Positions 1 to 44,710 of a stretch of DNA of 64,000 nucleotides are shown piece after piece. Position 1 is the first letter of the stretch; each line of letters starts with the position of its first letter. This DNA comes from Eledone cirrhosa (Eukaryota), in assembly GCA_964016885.1 (NCBI GenBank), contig OZ024752.1:6138001-6202000 (forward strand), read 5' to 3'. A program made the position numbers and the translations under genes. The notes under the pieces were generated by a model, which made no database searches, had not been told where the DNA came from, and saw only the letters and a program-made list of their open reading frames with translations.

Positions 1-651
1 TACACACACACATGTACACACACACGTGTGCACACACACATGTACACACACATGTACACACACATGTACACACACACATGTACACACACATGTACAGACA
101 CACATGTACACACACATGTACACACACACATGTACACACACATGTACACACACACATGTACACACACATGTACAGACACACGTACACACACACATGTACA
201 CACACACGTACACACACACATGTACACACACATGTACACACACACATGTACACACACATGTACACACACACATGTACACACACACATGTACACACACACG
301 TGTACACACACACGTGTACACACACATGTACACACACATGTACACACACATGTACACACACACATGTACACACACATGTACACACACACATGTACACACA
401 CACATGTACACACACATACATAGGGAGAATATGGAAGGGGAAATTGACGTTCGTATGCACACACCCATTAACACACACACACATTAACACACACCCATTA
501 ACACACACACATTAACACACACCCATTAACACACACACATTAACACACACATTAATACACACACATACATTAACACATTAACACACACACATACATTAAC
601 ACACACACACACATTAACACATTAACACACACACATTAACACACACACACA
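1..651. repeat. Compound (CA)n microsatellite with CATGTA/CGTA and CATTAA interruptions
   Basis: Directly visible; explains the His/Thr-rich ORFs at 12-515. Confidence 0.95.
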
Positions 652-19346: not shown

Positions 19347-19438
19347 GCGCGCGCTAACACAGAAAACAATAACGAAGAGTGCAGTACAAAGTGTTAGTAT
19401 TAGGTTCACGCTTGAGAGTGGAGGAGGGGAGGGGGTTA

Positions 19439-19469
19439 CGACGTTTCGGGCATAAGCCCTTCATCAGGA
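19439..19469 (-). ncRNA. Minimal type I hammerhead ribozyme motif (PLE-type)
   Basis: Minus strand TC-CTGATGA-A-GGGC-TTAT-GCCC-GAAA-CG-TC-G: intact core, 4-bp stem II, palindromic ACGT stem III, GUC cleavage triplet; stem I is weak. Confidence 0.75.
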
Positions 19470-19473
19470 GAAA

Positions 19474-26098: not shown

Positions 26099-27274
26099 AG
26101 CCCAGATATACACACACACACACACATATATGTAAATATATGTGTGTGTGTGTGTGTGTGTATCTGAAATTATATATATATTATATTTATATATATATAA
26201 ATACTTGATAGCTCTCACAACATGGAGCCAAGCACGTAACAACAACGTTGGCGTATTAGTCGCTAGTCTTCCTCCCCACACAGATATGTAACATACCTTA
26301 CGACATATGGAATATTTCGTTGGATGTAAGACAGTACCACAAGATTCCTTCTAAAACAACTGCTACTATTAGAACCAGCCCACATTACAGACACCACACA
26401 GGTCTAACACTGTTGTCCAAGGGAAAGGCAATGGTCGATACAGTTTGGTACCAGTGGGGTCACAAATCATTTCTACAGCTGAGTAAACTGGGGCAACGTG
26501 AAATAAAAGGTTTTGTTCGGGGATTCAATGCATCACCCAATCCAGGGTTTCAACCCAAAACCTTACGATTGTGACCTCAACGTTCTAACCACAAAACCTT
26601 CACTTTTCCAAATTTAAAGTTTTCTTAGCAACTTTCAATGTTTATTTTAGGTTTTGCCGTCTGAAGAGCTCAGGCTATCTTACCTGATAACCATCAGGGA
26701 AATATGTATAACGGGGTTTTAAATAAACCTGAATCAACTGAATATGGCCTCCAATCTTATATATATATATATATATTTAATACATTAACAGAGAAAGCTT
26801 TAAGCAATACTCCGACCGGCTTCCGTCTCACTCAACAAACATTAGGATATACCTTAGCATAATCCCAATTATACGTTTGGGGTGCTAACTATACGTATTT
26901 TGTGGATAGCCAGTTGTATTATTTTATATGAGACATAATTAAAATACATCTCTCTTTCCAAACGATCGTTTCATTATAAGCTTTCTACAAATTGGGAAAA
27001 TAATGTCCTGGTTATGTAGAAGCCTACACATAGTCCGTAGGAATATATGTAGGTGGGCACTTATAAATCATCAGTGGATGCCGGACAAATATCGATATAA
27101 AAAAAACCTTACCGATATTAATGTTCAGCGATGGTACCCCTCCGATGGTACCCCTCCGTGCTAGAATGACCGCCAAATATGTGTGTGTTTATCCCGGGTG
27201 TAATCGGGGGTAACCATAGTAAGTAAGGTACTCAATACATAGCAGAGTATAAATATTTAATATATAATATAGAA

Positions 27275-27375
27275 ATGGCTTCTACAGGACTAGAACTGTT
27301 TCATTCGGGAGAAATCATCAGCAAAACCCTGATGATTTCCTCCGAATGAAACAGTTCTAGTCCTGTAGAGGCCAT
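27275..27375. mobile_element. Fold-back element with hammerhead-like core in each arm
   Basis: ~47-bp inverted arms, 7-nt loop; CTGATGA-TTTCCTCCGAAT-GAAACAGTTC; another single copy at ~42283-42312(-). Confidence 0.6.
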
Positions 27376-27579
27376 AATACCGATTGTGTTGTTATTTCTG
27401 TTTACCTTTTATACACACACGCACACACACACACACACGCGCGCGCACACACGCACACGTGTGTGTGTGTGTAAAAAGTAAACAGAAATAACAATACAAT
27501 CGGTACAGTATATGGAAAGGATATATTAGGTAAATGCTTGAAATAGCAGGAAGACGGTCTTAACATATATATATATATA

Positions 27580-30890: not shown

Positions 30891-30954
<64 letters not shown>

Positions 30955-31112
30955 ATACTTTGGGAGGGTCATGTTGCCAATAAGAAACACACGCACCAGT
31001 TGCTTTCACTTCAATTTATTATATATTTATAAATTTATAAATTTACAAATCTACAAACTTATAAATTTCTGGTTGATTGGTTGGTTTCACAACCAGATAG
31101 TTGTTTATATAT

Positions 31113-31157
31113 AGTCATAGTCCTTTCGTCACACACTCTGTGACCTCTTCAGTGACT
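31113..31157 (-). ncRNA. Type I hammerhead ribozyme (inverted copy)
   Basis: Exact reverse complement of 31346-31390. Confidence 0.8.
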
Positions 31158-31345
31158 GGGGATTTCTTTCTTTGTTTCTGTGCCTTTCCTTTCTTCTGTC
31201 CTACGCCATTTTGATAAATGAACACAAACACACACAGACACCCGGATGTGGCGCATGCGCAAACTGAGCACACAACACACACACAGAAACAAAATGGCGT
31301 AGGACAGAAGAAAGGAAAGGCACAGAAACAAAGAAAGGAATCCCC

Positions 31346-31390
31346 AGTCACTGAAGAGGTCACAGAGTGTGTGACGAAAGGACTATGACT
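31346..31390 (+). ncRNA. Type I hammerhead ribozyme
   Basis: AGTCA-CTGAAGA-G-GTCAC-agagtgt-GTGAC-GAAA-GGAC-TA^TGACT: 5-bp stem I, 5-bp stem II, intact core, minimal stem III. Confidence 0.8.
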
Positions 31391-31842
31391 ATATATAAAC
31401 AACTATCTGGTTGTGGAACCAACCAACCAACCAGAAATTTATAAGTTTGTAGATTTGTAAATTTATAAATTTATAAATATATAATAAATTGAAGTGAAAG
31501 CAACTGGTGCGTGTGTTTCTTATTGGCAACATGACCCTCCCAAAGTATAACAATATCGGTTTCAACACACGATTTCAGATAAAGAATCTTGCTAAACAAA
31601 TTCAGAAACGAAATATATATATATATATATATATATATAATGACCCGAATTACTTGGTCGTTTTTATGGCAGTGCGGATGATTGTTTAACCATCGTCTCG
31701 GTGTGTTTGGCCCTTAACGTATGTTGTAGCTCTGGTTCATCTGAATCATTGAGCGCTTGCCACACATCTCGGAAGTTGTTTTTCGTTAATTCCTAAGCCG
31801 AAATACGATTCTCGCTAATTTATATATGTATATATATATATA

Positions 31843-36114: not shown

Positions 36115-37131
<1,017 letters not shown>

Positions 37132-37654
37132 TGTTATATTTGGGGAGGGTCATATTTGCGTAATATTGCCAGAATTAATAACAGAACACACTCACTGTTT
37201 GGTTGGTTTTCGCTTCTCGCTGTCTTTTATATATATATATCTGCGATCTAACTTACTCGGTCCTCAATGTTGCCATTGACTGACCGGCGGTCAAAAATAA
37301 TACAGATACAATATAGACAAACACATATATATATAGTTTACATAAATCTTTCGTTGCACATCTGCAACATCGTCAGTGGTGTTATATTCATTGTTCCTCC
37401 TGTTGTGTTGTATGTCTACGCCATTTTTTTTTTTGTTCAGTCTGTCTATATATTTATTTATTTATTTGCTTGTTTGTTTATCTTATTTTATTTTTTTGTC
37501 TTCTTTGCGCATGCGTTTGCGTGTGTGTATAGTGTTATGTGTGATGTGTGACTAGTGTGTATAGTGTTGTGTCTGCTGGGTGACTAGTGTGTGTTTATGT
37601 GCTTGTGTATGTATTTATTTATCTTATTTTATTTAATTTAATTTACTTATTTAT

Positions 37655-38563
37655 TTATACTTCTCTTAGGTCAGTGTTGTTTGTTTGGGTGTTGTTGTTG
37701 TTCCACTCATTCTTTCTGTTTAGCTTTGGTCTTCTAATTTCTATTTCACTGGCCTCTCTGATTTGCCTATCTGCTGGGTCATTCCTATGTTTAGATATTA
37801 TTCTAATTTCTATGTTGTCTATGTTACCGTCATGATGTTGTCTAGCATGTTCGTATAGTACTGACCCGTTTTTTCGTCCTTTTAGTTCCCCCCAGTGTTG
37901 GTCTATCCTTTCACCTATGCTACGAGCTGTCTCACCTATGTATGTTGTTGTCGTGTTTCTGCAAGTACCCTCTGTACATCTTATGCTATAGACTACGTTT
38001 CTAGTTTTACAGTTTATCCGGGGGTTCACCTTACATATGATACATTTCCTATTGGTACAGTGGGTTTTCTTAAAAGGGTAGGTTTTGCTGATCAGGGATT
38101 TTATGGTGGTTCCTGGCTTTTCTACCACCTTTATTTTTAAGTGGGTCTTTCTCAGGGCCTTTCTACACTGGTTAGCTAATTTCCCTCCAGGGGTGGCGTC
38201 CACAAACATGACACTCTGATATCTCTGGTTGTCGTACCATGATGTGGCCTTCCCTATCTTATGTCTAGCCCTATCTAAGCTATTCCATGATTTGCTCCTG
38301 TATAGTGGGCAAATTCCTTTCATGTCCAGTTCTATGAGGGTCTTATACTTTTCCATGGCTCCTTCGTATACTCTGACTCTGTCTCTTTGGTTGTAGCCAG
38401 AGAACTGCATGCGGTTGATGAAGTGTTGGATGTGTCCTTCCATTTCTGTTGGGTCGCACATGCTGGACACATTCTTCATCACTCGTACCAAATCTGCGAT
38501 CAGAATATTAAACTTAGCACTACTGGACATTGCTGAGTTTTTGAGTATCAGGTATTTGGAGGC
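37655..38563 (-). pseudogene. Inverted duplicate of the PLE thumb + GIY-YIG region
   Basis: Translation ASKYLIL...DLREV is identical to the C-terminal ~300 aa of the plus-strand ORF; the Cys/Tyr-rich start of the listed 334-aa ORF is antisense of the Asn-rich tract. Confidence 0.9.
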
Positions 38564-41280
38564 ACAGACACAGCAACAGTGACCACAGTAGTAATAACGG
38601 TAACAATACGAACAACAACAACAACAATAACCACAGTGGTAATAATGGAAATAGTACATGTAGCAACATCAACAAAAACAAGAAACATAATAATAGTAAC
38701 AACCACAATGGTAGAAATAGCAGTAACAACAACAACAATAACGGTGAAGTAAACAACAATACATCTAGCAATCATAACAATAATAATATTAATGCTAAGG
38801 ATAGAAACAACAACAACCACCATGATAACAATAATAGCAACACACACAACTATGACGATAGAAATAACGACAACCCCTTAGAGAAACTATTTTTCAACCC
38901 AGCTGACAAAACATATAAGATGGGTAATATCTATCCTACGAGGTTACCCTTTAATAAAAGAGTTTGCATACCACAACAAATAGATGACGAGACGGAGGCA
39001 CAGTTCACCATAGCTAGAAATAAGATTAGACAAGTAGTAGACAGGTACACTATGAGACAGAGCAGACCAGAGGCCCAACAACTTGGGATAAAACCTGTAG
39101 AAGGCTTGGTTAGCCTCAAGCAGCGCACAAGGGATGGTGAGGTAGTGTGTCTACCCACAGATAAGTCTGGTAGGATGTCAATAGATAGCATGCCGAACTA
39201 CATCGAGGCAATGCAACCCCACATCACCAACACGAGCGAAGTTGCACAACTAACACACGATGGGAGAGAAAAAATCCTCAACGCTCACATGATGATGTGG
39301 ACTGACATCCTAAAGCCAAGCAGACGCACTGCCAACAACTTCCAGGCGTCTAACAATGGCATACCACCCTTGTATGGGCTCCGCAAAGACCACAAGACAG
39401 TCGACGACCCGACAATAGGACCACCAACAAGACCTGTATGCGGAGCTAATATAGCTAGCAACTACAGGATCTCCTACTTCCTCTCAATGGTTATACGCCC
39501 CATAATCAAGATGTCCCCAGATGTATGTGAAAGTACAGAGGACCTCCTCAGCAGAATCAGTGAGTGCAACAAAAACAGGAGCCTATCCAACTGCATAATA
39601 GGCAGCATGGATGTGGTGTCACTGTACCCATCCATTAACATTGATTTTGCTGTGAAAAGATGTGTGGAGATGATCATTGAGAGTGAGGTGGAGTTCTGCG
39701 ACGTCGACACAGACGAACTGGGCCTCCTACTTAGACTTACTTACGACACTGACTACCTAGACAGCCATGACCTTAGATGTTTCTGCCCTAGTAGACCTAT
39801 AAGAGGTAGACCCCCCACCATAACCTCAATGGCTAAAAAGACTCCCATAGGAAGGTGGATTGGGTGGACCAAAGCTATACGGACCCCCCAAAACACTGAT
39901 CAGGTAAGAAAAATGGTCGCACATGCAATAGGGGCTAGTATCAAAACTACCCTAAAGGGCCACATATTTAAGTTCAATGAGAAAATCTACACCCAAAATG
40001 AGGGAGCAGCCATCGGCGTCAGCATAGCTGGCGATGTTGCCAACCTTTTCATGGTATGGTGGGAAAGGAGACTTAAAGATCTCCTTAATGAAAGCTCCAT
40101 AGACCTCATCATGTACTCTCGTTATGTAGACGATATCAATATAGTTATAAGAACACCCCCACTAGAGAGCACTAACAAGTTTGATTTAGAATGTAGCACG
40201 ATGGAAAGCATCCAGCAGATAGCTAATTCCATACACCAGAATATAACTGTAACTATAGACTTCCCTTCCAAACACCCTAACAATAGACTACCTGTATTAG
40301 ACACAGAACTCTGGATTAACACTATAGACGAGAGAGCCCAAATTCTCCACTCACACTATGCTAAACCCATGGCCTCCAAATACCTGATACTCAAAAACTC
40401 AGCAATGTCCAGTAGTGCTAAGTTTAATATTCTGATCGCAGATTTGGTACGAGTGATGAAGAATGTGTCCAGCATGTGCGACCCAACAGAAATGGAAGGA
40501 CACATCCAACACTTCATCAACCGCATGCAGTTCTCTGGCTACAACCAAAGAGACAGAGTCAGAGTATACGAAGGAGCCATGGAAAAGTATAAGACCCTCA
40601 TAGAACTGGACATGAAAGGAATTTGCCCACTATACAGGAGCAAATCATGGAATAGCTTAGATAGGGCTAGACATAAGATAGGGAAGGCCACATCATGGTA
40701 CGACAACCAGAGATATCAGAGTGTCATGTTTGTGGACGCCACCCCTGGAGGGAAATTAGCTAACCAGTGTAGAAAGGCCCTGAGAAAGACCCACTTAAAA
40801 ATAAAGGTGGTAGAAAAGCCAGGAACCACCATAAAATCCCTGATCAGCAAAACCTACCCTTTTAAGAAAACCCACTGTACCAATAGGAAATGTATCATAT
40901 GTAAGGTGAACCCCCGGATAAACTGTAAAACTAGAAACGTAGTCTATAGCATAAGATGTACAGAGGGTACTTGCAGAAACACGACAACAACATACATAGG
41001 TGAGACAGCTCGTAGCATAGGTGAAAGGATAGACCAACACTGGGGGGAACTAAAAGGACGAAAAAACGGGTCAGTACTATACGAACATGCTAGACAACAT
41101 CATGACGGTAACATAGACAACATAGAAATTAGAATAATATCTAAACATAGGAATGACCCAGCAGATAGGCAAATCAGAGAGGCCAGTGAAATAGAAATTA
41201 GAAGACCAAAGCTAAACAGAAAGAATGAGTGGAACAACAACAACACCCAAACAAACAACACTGACCTAAGAGAAGTATAA
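38563..41280 (+). CDS. PLE polyprotein: reverse transcriptase + C-terminal GIY-YIG endonuclease (5'-partial; first ATG at 38920)
   Basis: TDKSG motif, LYGLRKDHK, RPVC, motif A GSMDVVSLYPSI, motif B EGAAIGVSIAGDVANLFM, motif C RYVDDI, LPVLD; linker CTNRKCIIC; GIY-YIG NVVYSIRC...C...YIGET.R...R..QH...H...H...RQIREA..I...PKLN. Frame is open from the inversion junction at 38563. Confidence 0.95.
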   Translation, partial: HRHSNSDHSSNNGNNTNNNNNNNHSGNNGNSTCSNINKNKKHNNSNNHNGRNSSNNNNNNGEVNNNTSSNHNNNNINAKDRNNNNHHDNNNSNTHNYDDRNNDNPLEKLFFNPADKTYKMGNIYPTRLPFNKRVCIPQQIDDETEAQFTIARNKIRQVVDRYTMRQSRPEAQQLGIKPVEGLVSLKQRTRDGEVVCLPTDKSGRMSIDSMPNYIEAMQPHITNTSEVAQLTHDGREKILNAHMMMWTDILKPSRRTANNFQASNNGIPPLYGLRKDHKTVDDPTIGPPTRPVCGANIASNYRISYFLSMVIRPIIKMSPDVCESTEDLLSRISECNKNRSLSNCIIGSMDVVSLYPSINIDFAVKRCVEMIIESEVEFCDVDTDELGLLLRLTYDTDYLDSHDLRCFCPSRPIRGRPPTITSMAKKTPIGRWIGWTKAIRTPQNTDQVRKMVAHAIGASIKTTLKGHIFKFNEKIYTQNEGAAIGVSIAGDVANLFMVWWERRLKDLLNESSIDLIMYSRYVDDINIVIRTPPLESTNKFDLECSTMESIQQIANSIHQNITVTIDFPSKHPNNRLPVLDTELWINTIDERAQILHSHYAKPMASKYLILKNSAMSSSAKFNILIADLVRVMKNVSSMCDPTEMEGHIQHFINRMQFSGYNQRDRVRVYEGAMEKYKTLIELDMKGICPLYRSKSWNSLDRARHKIGKATSWYDNQRYQSVMFVDATPGGKLANQCRKALRKTHLKIKVVEKPGTTIKSLISKTYPFKKTHCTNRKCIICKVNPRINCKTRNVVYSIRCTEGTCRNTTTTYIGETARSIGERIDQHWGELKGRKNGSVLYEHARQHHDGNIDNIEIRIISKHRNDPADRQIREASEIEIRRPKLNRKNEWNNNNTQTNNTDLREV

Positions 41281-41554
41281 ATAAATAAGTAAATTAAATT
41301 AAATAAAATAAGATAAATAAATACATACACAAGCACATAAACACACACTAGTCACCCAGCAGACACAACACTATACACACTAGTCACACATCACACATAA
41401 CACTATACACACACGCAAACGCATGCGCAAAGAAGACAAAAAAATAAAATAAGATAAACAAACAAGCAAATAAATAAATAAATATATAGACAGACTGAAC
41501 AAAAAAAAAAATGGCGTAGACATACAACACAACAGGAGGAACAATGAATATAAC

Positions 41555-41596
41555 ACCACTGACGATGTTGCAGATGTGCAACGAAAGATTTATGTA
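41555..41596 (+). ncRNA. Hammerhead ribozyme motif in the PLE 3' region (inverted copy 37339-37380, -)
   Basis: CA-CTGACGA-T-GTTGCA-gatg-TGCAAC-GAAA-GATT-TA^TG: intact core and 6-bp stem II; stem I only ~2 bp. Confidence 0.6.
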
Positions 41597-41868
41597 AACT
41601 ATATATATATGTGTTTGTCTATATTGTATCTGTATTATTTTTGACCGCCGGTCAGTCAATGGCAACATTGAGGACCGAGTAAGTTAGATCGCAGATATAT
41701 ATATATAAAAGACAGCGAGAAGCGAAAACCAACCAAACAGTGAGTGTGTTCTGTTATTAATTCTGGCAATATTACGCAAATATGACCCTCCCCAAATATA
41801 ACAATATCTGTTTCGACACACGATTTCATATAAAAAACCTCGCAAAACTATGTATATATATATATATG

Positions 41869-42897: not shown

Positions 42898-42900
<3 letters not shown>

Positions 42901-43193
42901 ATATACTAACAAATGGAAACTATATGTATAAAACCATATTTATTTCATTATACATATTTCAAGGACACCAAGTCAAATTATGGTGCGCTTTCATCAGATA
43001 AAATATAATATAGATCAGTTTTATAAATAAATATTGACATACCCTTAAAGAATGCGACCATTTCTGTTGGGAGTATGGTTTTATAAATATAGTTTCCATT
43101 TCGTATTTTTACTCCAATAATTTGTTGAGGGCTTTATATCAGTTATAAAAATATTTGCTTGTTGTATCCCAACAATTTAAATATAACTTCTAC

Positions 43194-43194
<1 letters not shown>
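42898..43194 (+). mobile_element. Family P2 fold-back element with hammerhead on the inverted arm (42942-43004, -)
   Basis: Homologous ends to 27580-27847; minus strand ATTTTAT-CTGATGA-AAGCGCACCA...TGGTGTCCTT-GAAA-TATGTA-TA^ATGAAAT. Confidence 0.7.
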
Positions 43195-43255
<61 letters not shown>

Positions 43256-44467: not shown

Positions 44468-44471
<4 letters not shown>

Positions 44472-44710
44472 GAGGTTATATTTAATTTGTTGAGATTCAA
44501 CAAGCTTAAAATGTTATAACTGATATAAAGCACCATCCATCGAACCTCAACCGTTAAGGTTGTCTTTATGTGGGTATGTCAATATTTATTTATAAAACAA
44601 ATTTGTATTTTATCTGATGAAAGCGCACCATAATTTGCCTTGGTTGCCCTTGAAATATATATAATAAAATAATTATGGTTTTATAAATATAGTTTCTATT
44701 TATATTGTGT
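44468..44710 (-). mobile_element. Family P2 element, opposite orientation
   Basis: Left part is the reverse complement of the P2 tail (TATATCAGTTATAA...CAACAA...AAATATAAC); right part matches the P2 arm. Confidence 0.65.
44607..44670 (+). ncRNA. Type I hammerhead ribozyme
   Basis: ATTTTAT-CTGATGA-AAGCGCACCA-taatttgcct-TGGTTGCCCTT-GAAA-TATATA-TA^ATAAAAT: 7-bp stem I, long imperfect stem II, palindromic (AT)n stem III. Confidence 0.7.

What the first reader, a model, noticed from the sequence alone, without database searches (positions are those of the whole stretch)
30947..31613. 667-bp non-coding mini-PLE shares terminal motif and exact inversion endpoint with the coding element
Seen: its end ATGACCCTCCCAAAGTATAACAATAT|CGGTTTCAACACACGATTTCAGATAAAGAATCTTGCTAAAC aligns with ATGACCCTCCCCAAATATAACAATAT|CTGTTTCGACACACGATTTCATATAAAAAACCTCGCAAAAC (41782-41848), while the interiors are largely dissimilar. 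In both elements the inverted arm stops at the same nucleotide (...TATAACAATAT), whose AT end merges with the (TA)n flank. Each arm has a well-formed hammerhead (5-bp stems I and II). Inference: the ~65-nt conserved block is a cis-element for RT/endonuclease recognition, and the inverted strand is primed at a fixed site by microhomology with the (TA)n target.
Basis: partly seen in the sequence, partly recalled or inferred. Interest (0 to 1): 0.75.

Follow-up and report, generated by a model that had tools for sequence, protein, structure and literature searches.

The report
Truncated two-armed Penelope-like retrotransposon insertion
This is a broken-off, back-to-back copy of the end of an abundant, protein-coding jumping gene: the shared motif is the start of its gene, and its fixed ends are a known signature that likely marks the two places where the enzyme starts copying its RNA, one used for each arm.

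Summary
30947-31616 is not a non-coding mini family. Its right arm matches 379 of 388 bases at the end of an intact 1,267-aa RT plus GIY-YIG Penelope-like element (family B), and its central junction occurs once in the genome. The shared block is codons 1-23 of the ORF, and 6 of the 10 differences from the neighbouring family A are synonymous. The fixed ends are the known PLE 'tail' borders, +26 and +84/86 from the ATG: 87 of 102 anchored B copies end exactly there, and 8,079 short versus 7,886 tailed ends were counted genome-wide. Modest additions: 59 of 64 inverted pairs have one end of each kind, either arm can be the longer, and both B ends sit on template ATAT. The most likely mechanism is priming from both ends of a cut (TA)n at two internal RNA sites. 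The scan noted this two-armed footprint before in other windows of this genome.

The parts
30914..30946 (.). left (TA)n target flank, preceded by (TC)n
30947..31213 (-). short-ended arm of family B: ORF nt +1..+26 plus 241 nt of upstream UTR, 5'-truncated
31113..31157 (-). type I minimal hammerhead, left arm
   Evidence: (core at 31152 on the minus strand), mirror of 31346-31390
31214..31289 (+). unpaired centre: extra 5' part of the longer arm; junction at 31213/31214 with 1-nt overlap, unique in the genome
31214..31616 (+). tailed arm of family B: about 317 nt of UTR plus ORF nt +1..+86
   Evidence: 379 of 388 aligned bases identical to intact element L223
31346..31390 (+). type I minimal hammerhead: stem I 5 bp, stem II 6 bp, 2-bp stem III, predicted cut after 31385
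   Evidence: sequence; activity untested
31531..31599 (+). the shared block: codons 1-23 of the family-B ORF
31557..31616 (+). 60-nt PLE tail between the two fixed ends (+27..+86)
31617..31639 (.). right (TA)n target flank
37128..38563 (-). short-ended arm of the neighbouring family-A insertion
38564..41850 (+). tailed arm of family A: 5'-truncated RT plus GIY-YIG ORF (stop at 41280), UTR with hammerhead, ORF start +1..+69 at 41782-41850

Best explanation
The 670-bp element is a single 5'-truncated, head-to-head insertion of an autonomous Penelope-like family into (TA)n, with one arm ending at ORF base +26 and the other at +86, and it was likely made when both ends of the cut repeat primed reverse transcription at two fixed internal sites of the element's RNA. 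Shown: family origin, the coding nature of the shared block, the two end classes, their one-of-each pairing, and scattered inner ends. Inferred steps: (1) tandem units give RNA that runs from the UTR into the next ORF start; (2) the GIY-YIG nicks both strands of the self-complementary (TA)n; (3) the enzyme, bound at the ORF start, starts one cDNA at +82..86 and the other at +22..26, helped by 2-5 nt of pairing between the TA primer end and template AUAU; (4) both cDNAs stop early and are joined by repair with 0-5 nt of overlap. Families A and B share the block and the short end because they are sister families with a conserved N-terminus.
For: Origin: 379 of 388 identity to a 1,267-aa intact element; about 57 of the 150 best B hits and 103 of the 150 best A hits lie in stop-free frames of at least 1,200 aa (hand counts); junction unique; inner ends scatter from -26 to about -3,900. 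Coding: position identities 0.91/0.96/0.70. Ends: 40 at +26 and 47 at +86 of 102 B copies; A at +26 (11), +84 (7) and +68..71 (5) of 30; 8,079 against 7,886 genome-wide. Pairing: 59 of 64, p=4.5e-13 against independent choice (3 further pairs with a read-through or odd end left out of the 67). Arms of one insertion are closer than arms of different insertions (B 0.020 against 0.068, 29 of 35 pairs usable; A 0.026 against 0.086, 14 of 17). Junction overlap 0-5 nt in 27 of 55. Precedent: purified PAc cuts and extends both strands and starts at two internal ORF sites that bound the tail (PMC11167929).
Against: No biochemistry was done here. 54 of 73 unpaired copies show no partner arm within the 0.7-6 kb available, and only 5 of 73 have TA at their inner end, so many insertions are one-armed or have lost an arm. 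PAc starts at sites not homologous to the cut DNA (PMC11167929). Microhomology is not sufficient: ATATA at A +47..51 is never an end (one search end table) and TATA at B +16 seldom. Nine of 45 junctions are near-symmetric hairpins, several centred on a natural palindrome, which suits fold-back. Arm similarity could reflect later gene conversion. The pair sample comes from the first 37 Mb of one contig, and the family-A regions were chosen partly because they looked paired.
Confidence: 0.7

Rival explanations
1. Self-priming and endonuclease resolution: a (possibly antisense) template folds back to make a hairpin intermediate, and the GIY-YIG cuts it at the two ATAT sites, which resemble its (TA)n target, before joining to the genome.
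For: Proposed in print: self-priming on an antisense template (PMC3846280, discussion) and EN-mediated resolution for the tail (PMC8557442). Both ends are target-like; 9 of 45 junctions are near-perfect hairpins; arms are alike.
Against: A DNA fold-back copy cannot be longer than its template or gain the tail, yet the short-ended arm is the longer in 13 of 45 junctions; this excludes plain cDNA fold-back for those cases but not the antisense version. The longer TA run at A +47..51 is not an end. In vitro data on PAc tie the tail borders to RT starts on sense RNA.
Confidence: 0.2
2. One reading: a non-autonomous, non-coding mini-PLE that keeps a 65-nt cis-element in order to be moved by the neighbouring coding family.
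For: The block is among the best conserved stretches between A and B: 15 of 971 other 23-codon windows reach its nucleotide identity. The ORF start is the protein-binding region in PAc.
Against: The arm is about 98% identical to an autonomous family with intact ORFs; the unit was never amplified; the block begins at the start codon and evolves like coding sequence; no real mixed A/B pair was seen (one adjacency, L089, with unrelated inserts between).
Confidence: 0.05
3. Assembly artefact or later gene conversion creates the inverted arms and their sameness.
For: The coding element's arms are 100% identical; low-complexity flanks are hard to assemble.
Against: The mini's arms differ at 3 of 267 sites; dozens of independent loci show the same two ends with different inner junctions. 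Conversion could even out arms but cannot make a one-sided tail.
Confidence: 0.03

Closest known systems
EN+ Penelope-like insertions with inverted pLTR and one-sided tail (PMC8557442 sections 6, 15; PMC3846280 passages)
   Same: 5'-truncation, partial tandems, inverted 5'-truncated copy, tail at one end only, (TA)n target, hammerhead in the pLTR, pLTR that includes the first codons of the ORF (12 aa, 22 with tail, in Pen2a_Av), Asn-rich insert in the ORF.
   Different: The tail is 60 nt (43-58 in family A) against 30-40; the pLTR holds about 9 codons, 28-29 with tail; the one-of-each pairing is counted here.
Poseidon_Ac (PAc) internal initiation (PMC11167929)
   Same: Two fixed sites inside the ORF start bound the tail; AT-rich target; both strands cut and extended.
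   Different: PAc starts are reported as non-homologous to the target, here they sit on AT/ATAT; the hammerhead here lies about 140-185 nt upstream of the ATG instead of overlapping it; other clade.
Nematis and Neptune clades (by eye against Fig. S7 rows of PMC8557442)
   Same: C-terminal GIY-YIG with CCHH, CX4CxxC linker, YVDD; short linker-to-GIY distance and the KVVEKPG stretch resemble the Nematis rows.
   Different: 129-135 aa from RT motif A to motif B in 108 of 117 homologues against about 61-63 in the canonical rows (hand count); DKS for DKG; ORF 1,210-1,270 aa.
Animal non-LTR retrozymes (bioRxiv 10.64898/2026.07.22.740005, part 1 of 5 read)
   Same: Type I hammerhead in a pLTR-like sequence.
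   Different: No tandem monomer and no amplified unit; this is a fragment of an autonomous element.

Membership tests
EN+ Penelope-like elements | single ORF with telomerase-like RT and GIY-YIG endonuclease | tested here: met
   1,267-aa B ORF and 1,208-1,211-aa A ORFs; RT model pLDDT 94.7, best structural matches are TERTs, Z 16.8, rmsd 3.8, 277 aligned; GIY-YIG read from the sequence (VVYSIRC..YIGET), not hit by Pfam
EN+ Penelope-like elements | pLTR, partial tandems, inverted 5'-truncated copy, one-sided tail | tested here: met
   tandem units of about 4.15 kb (A) and 4.29 kb (B); 67 head-to-head pairs
EN+ Penelope-like elements | minimal type I hammerhead in the pLTR | tested here: met
   132 motifs in the fetched loci, intact core, 6-bp stem II with two compensatory changes between A and B; no Rfam hit at gathering score
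EN+ Penelope-like elements | hammerhead self-cleavage; RT and endonuclease activity | not testable with these tools
   needs assays; minimal hammerheads cleave poorly alone (PMC4209133, passages)
Non-autonomous mini-PLE or retrozyme | own amplified unit with no coding parent of near identity | tested here: not met
Hydra clade | no CCHH, CxCX5C linker, LYRDDG-type RT5, DKT | tested here: not met
   CCHH and CX4CxxC present, RYVDD, DKS
Naiad/Chlamys | N-terminal endonuclease, no canonical hammerhead | tested here: not met
   C-terminal endonuclease and hammerhead present
Nematis/Neptune | C-terminal CCHH endonuclease with CX2-5CxxC linker | tested here: met
   compared by eye
Nematis/Neptune | no insertion between RT motifs A and B (canonical PLEs lack the IFD) | tested here: not met
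   about 70 aa longer (against rows; statement)
Nematis/Neptune | placement in the RT phylogeny | not tested
   no named reference proteins were available to the tree tools

The most novel reading that the evidence does not exclude
These young, intact families insert by obligatory coupled priming: the two ends of one cut (TA)n are assigned one each to two RNA sites 60 nt apart, with a telomerase-like short primer-template pairing at AUAU choosing the exact base, and they belong to a C-terminal-endonuclease PLE lineage with a telomerase-sized (about 70 aa) insertion in the RT fingers that the clade papers read here do not describe.
Probability: 0.4. Interest if true: 0.55.

Novelty: new member of a known kind. 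Interest (0 to 1): 0.3.

Why it matters
As a 'mini-PLE with a cis motif' the finding is ordinary: the tail, the inverted arm and the pLTR overlapping the ORF start are all in print. Its use is as test material. How PLEs form tandem/inverted structures is stated as open (PMC8557442 section 15), and two very young families with intact ORFs and over 16,000 anchored ends each give exact predictions for start sites, arm pairing and primer pairing in an existing in vitro assay. Repeat annotators should not file such hairpins as MITEs or as separate non-autonomous families.

Tried and rejected
DNA search of the own genome found nothing because common words are skipped; patterns were used instead. Rfam: no hit. 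Pfam: only a weak RVT_1 match, E 3e-4. PDB sequence search was uninformative. Structure in the shared block: none above shuffles (z +1.2 and +0.5). Hairpins just 3' of each end, a lead from e1-8673755: weak after the short end (z -1.1, +0.5) and modest after the tail end (z -1.9, -1.5), with one U-A to C-G swap at silent sites between A and B seen by eye; 31 read-through B copies were too alike for covariation; inconclusive. A third family was sought with the homologue P0002 and only family A came back. No RNA holder listed, which says nothing on expression. L1-type twin priming with end-to-end halves was rejected: the arms overlap in sequence. Target-site duplications cannot be read in (TA)n. 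Ends at TA runs upstream of the anchors could not be seen by design. Literature searches found no count of arm pairing and no C-terminal-endonuclease clade with an IFD; subscription papers and Repbase were not searched, only parts 57-58 of 59 of the PMC8557442 supplement were read, and the PMC11167929 supplements (Figs S1, S2) were not opened and may bear on microhomology.

Full report
Observation. The flagged stretch is an inverted repeat: 30947-31213 on the minus strand and 31290-31556 on the plus strand, 267 nt with 3 mismatches, a 76-nt centre, and a further 60 nt on the right only. Both ends run into (TA)n. The coding neighbour has the same layout with 1,436-nt arms, and both left arms stop at the same motif. 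The motif is far beyond chance: 4 hits in the window against 0 in 100 shuffles, and 43,806 in the 3.0-Gb genome.

The mini is a truncated copy of an autonomous family. Longer copies found through the motif carry, upstream of the same UTR, ORF sequence 70-72% identical to the window's coding element. A search with the N-terminus of this family (B) gave about 57 of 150 best hits in stop-free frames of at least 1,200 aa (hand count). Locus L223 holds two tandem 1,267-aa ORFs with RT and GIY-YIG, and the mini's right arm matches their end at 379 of 388 aligned bases. The mini's central junction occurs once in the genome, and inner ends of other copies scatter from -26 to about -3,900. There is no discrete mini family. 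The neighbour (family A) is a sister: 103 of 150 best hits in long open frames (hand count), 1,208-1,211 aa from the same ATG in seven loci, 65% amino-acid identity to B over RT-EN. The window's A copy lacks its first 918 nt.

The shared block is the start of the gene. It begins at the ATG and, in tandem copies, reads on through the tail into the ORF. Over codons 1-23, A and B share 19 of 23 residues, with position identities 0.91/0.96/0.70; 6 of 10 differences are silent against 0.21 expected (p=0.008). Silent sites are not significantly better kept than elsewhere (12 of 18 against 314 of 577, p=0.34). The block is nonetheless unusually conserved: 15 of 971 other windows reach its identity. 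A second role as binding site is therefore not excluded. A pLTR that includes the first codons, extended by the tail, is described for rotifer Penelope (PMC3846280, passages).

Ends. With an anchor 35 nt upstream of the ATG, 40 of 102 B copies end at +26 and 47 at +86; 4 end at +20..24, 9 at other positions in +77..87, one reads through and one breaks earlier. Of 30 anchored A copies, 11 end at +26, 2 at +23/24, 7 at +84, 2 at +80/81, 5 at +68..71 and 3 elsewhere. Genome-wide, B has 8,079 short and 7,886 tailed ends. But this is the known PLE tail: 30-40 bp often at one end only (PMC8557442, sections 6, 11 and 15 read), whose borders are two internal RT start sites in PAc (PMC11167929, parts 1-3 of 4 read).

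Pairing. Among 216 motif copies in the fetched loci there were 67 head-to-head pairs. Of the 64 with both ends classed, 59 are short plus tail, 4 tail plus tail and 1 short plus short (p=4.5e-13 against independent choice). In 45 of 55 mapped pairs with clean junctions the tailed arm is longer in 23, the short-ended arm in 13, and 9 are near-symmetric; overlap at the junction is 0-5 nt in 27 of 55 (2 of 57 failed to map). The 13 cases cannot come from a cDNA copying itself, so both arms most likely come from RNA. Arms of one insertion are more alike than arms of different insertions, which fits one source but also gene conversion. Against a universal two-armed rule: 54 of 73 unpaired copies show no partner nearby, and only 5 of 73 have TA at the inner end. 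This is unexplained. The sample is from the first 37 Mb of contig C1, and the A regions were picked partly as likely pairs.

Microhomology. In B, +1..+200 holds three ATAT/TATA 4-mers, at +16, +23 and +83; the two ends sit on two of them (about 0.6% by a rough hand estimate, 15 of 200 junction positions per site). In A the tail site offers only TAT, and ends are split between +84 and +68..71, which also has TA/AT. But ATATA at A +47..51 is never used (end table). So position is set otherwise and pairing may fix the base. The same data fit endonuclease cutting at target-like sites (first rival). PAc was reported to start without homology.

Hammerheads. The mini's motif has a full core, stem I of 5 bp, stem II of 6 bp and a 2-bp stem III (sequence). 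In 81 B motifs stem I has 4-5 bp in 73 and stem II 6 bp in 71; in 46 A motifs stem I has 2 bp in 44; stem II differs between families by two compensatory pairs. These are the minimal PLE hammerheads of PMC4209133 (passages). Activity is untested, and in PAc cleavage was not needed for insertion.

Clade. The protein has 268 homologues at E up to 0.001, mostly unnamed. The RT model (pLDDT 94.7) matches telomerase best, as expected of a PLE. It is not Hydra or Naiad. Its endonuclease and linker look Nematis-like by eye, but the stretch between RT motifs A and B is 129-135 aa in 108 of 117 homologues, about 70 more than in the canonical rows, at the place of the telomerase IFD, which canonical PLEs are said to lack. 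No tree with named references was built, so the clade stays open.

Other reading. bioRxiv 10.64898/2026.07.22.740005 (part 1 of 5) covers tandem retrozymes, which this is not. PMC13282606 (passages) gave nothing on structure. Earlier scan notes report the same two-armed, two-fixed-end footprint in other windows; they are unchecked and are not counted as support.

Verdict. A real feature, correctly seen but misnamed: an ordinary truncated insertion of a new, very young PLE family showing a known signature, with useful numbers on arm pairing and primer pairing. Interest 0.3.

Noticed in passing
window 39600-40000 (RT motif A to B); homologues P0002-P0121: About 70-aa conserved insertion at the IFD position in a PLE lineage with a C-terminal endonuclease; folds with high confidence; not superposed on TERT residue by residue.
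   Followed up: partly
L141/L142, L223, and G000:C28:42016373-42049916: Tandem arrays of near-identical full-length units (4.15 kb in A, 4.29 kb in B), at least eight A units in one array; many intact ORFs, so both families look recently active.
   Followed up: partly
L223 minus strand, ORF nt +91..+105 (beyond the tail, not in the window): Hairpin 5-7 nt after the tail end in both families, with one compensatory swap at silent codon positions; candidate RT-positioning signal, statistically weak.
   Followed up: partly
L111, L119, L120, L089: An older A-like subfamily with a different UTR whose tailed ends lie at +71.
   Followed up: no
window 31640-31830: A dispersed repeat directly beyond the right TA flank; similar copies at 74-89% in 5 fetched loci.
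   Followed up: partly
window 42898-43200 and 44470-44710: Copies of another abundant TA-associated repeat with a CTGATGA motif, 49 matches in fetched loci and window; hammerhead status not checked.
   Followed up: partly
window 27271-27380: Short near-perfect palindrome with CTGATGA..GAAA on both strands; similar palindromes in 4 fetched loci.
   Followed up: partly
window 19420-19473, minus strand: Hammerhead-like core with a GGGC/GCCC stem II next to a TA run; another family.
   Followed up: no
L101: Family-B copy in which the ORF start is fused in frame to RT motif B by an internal deletion.
   Followed up: no
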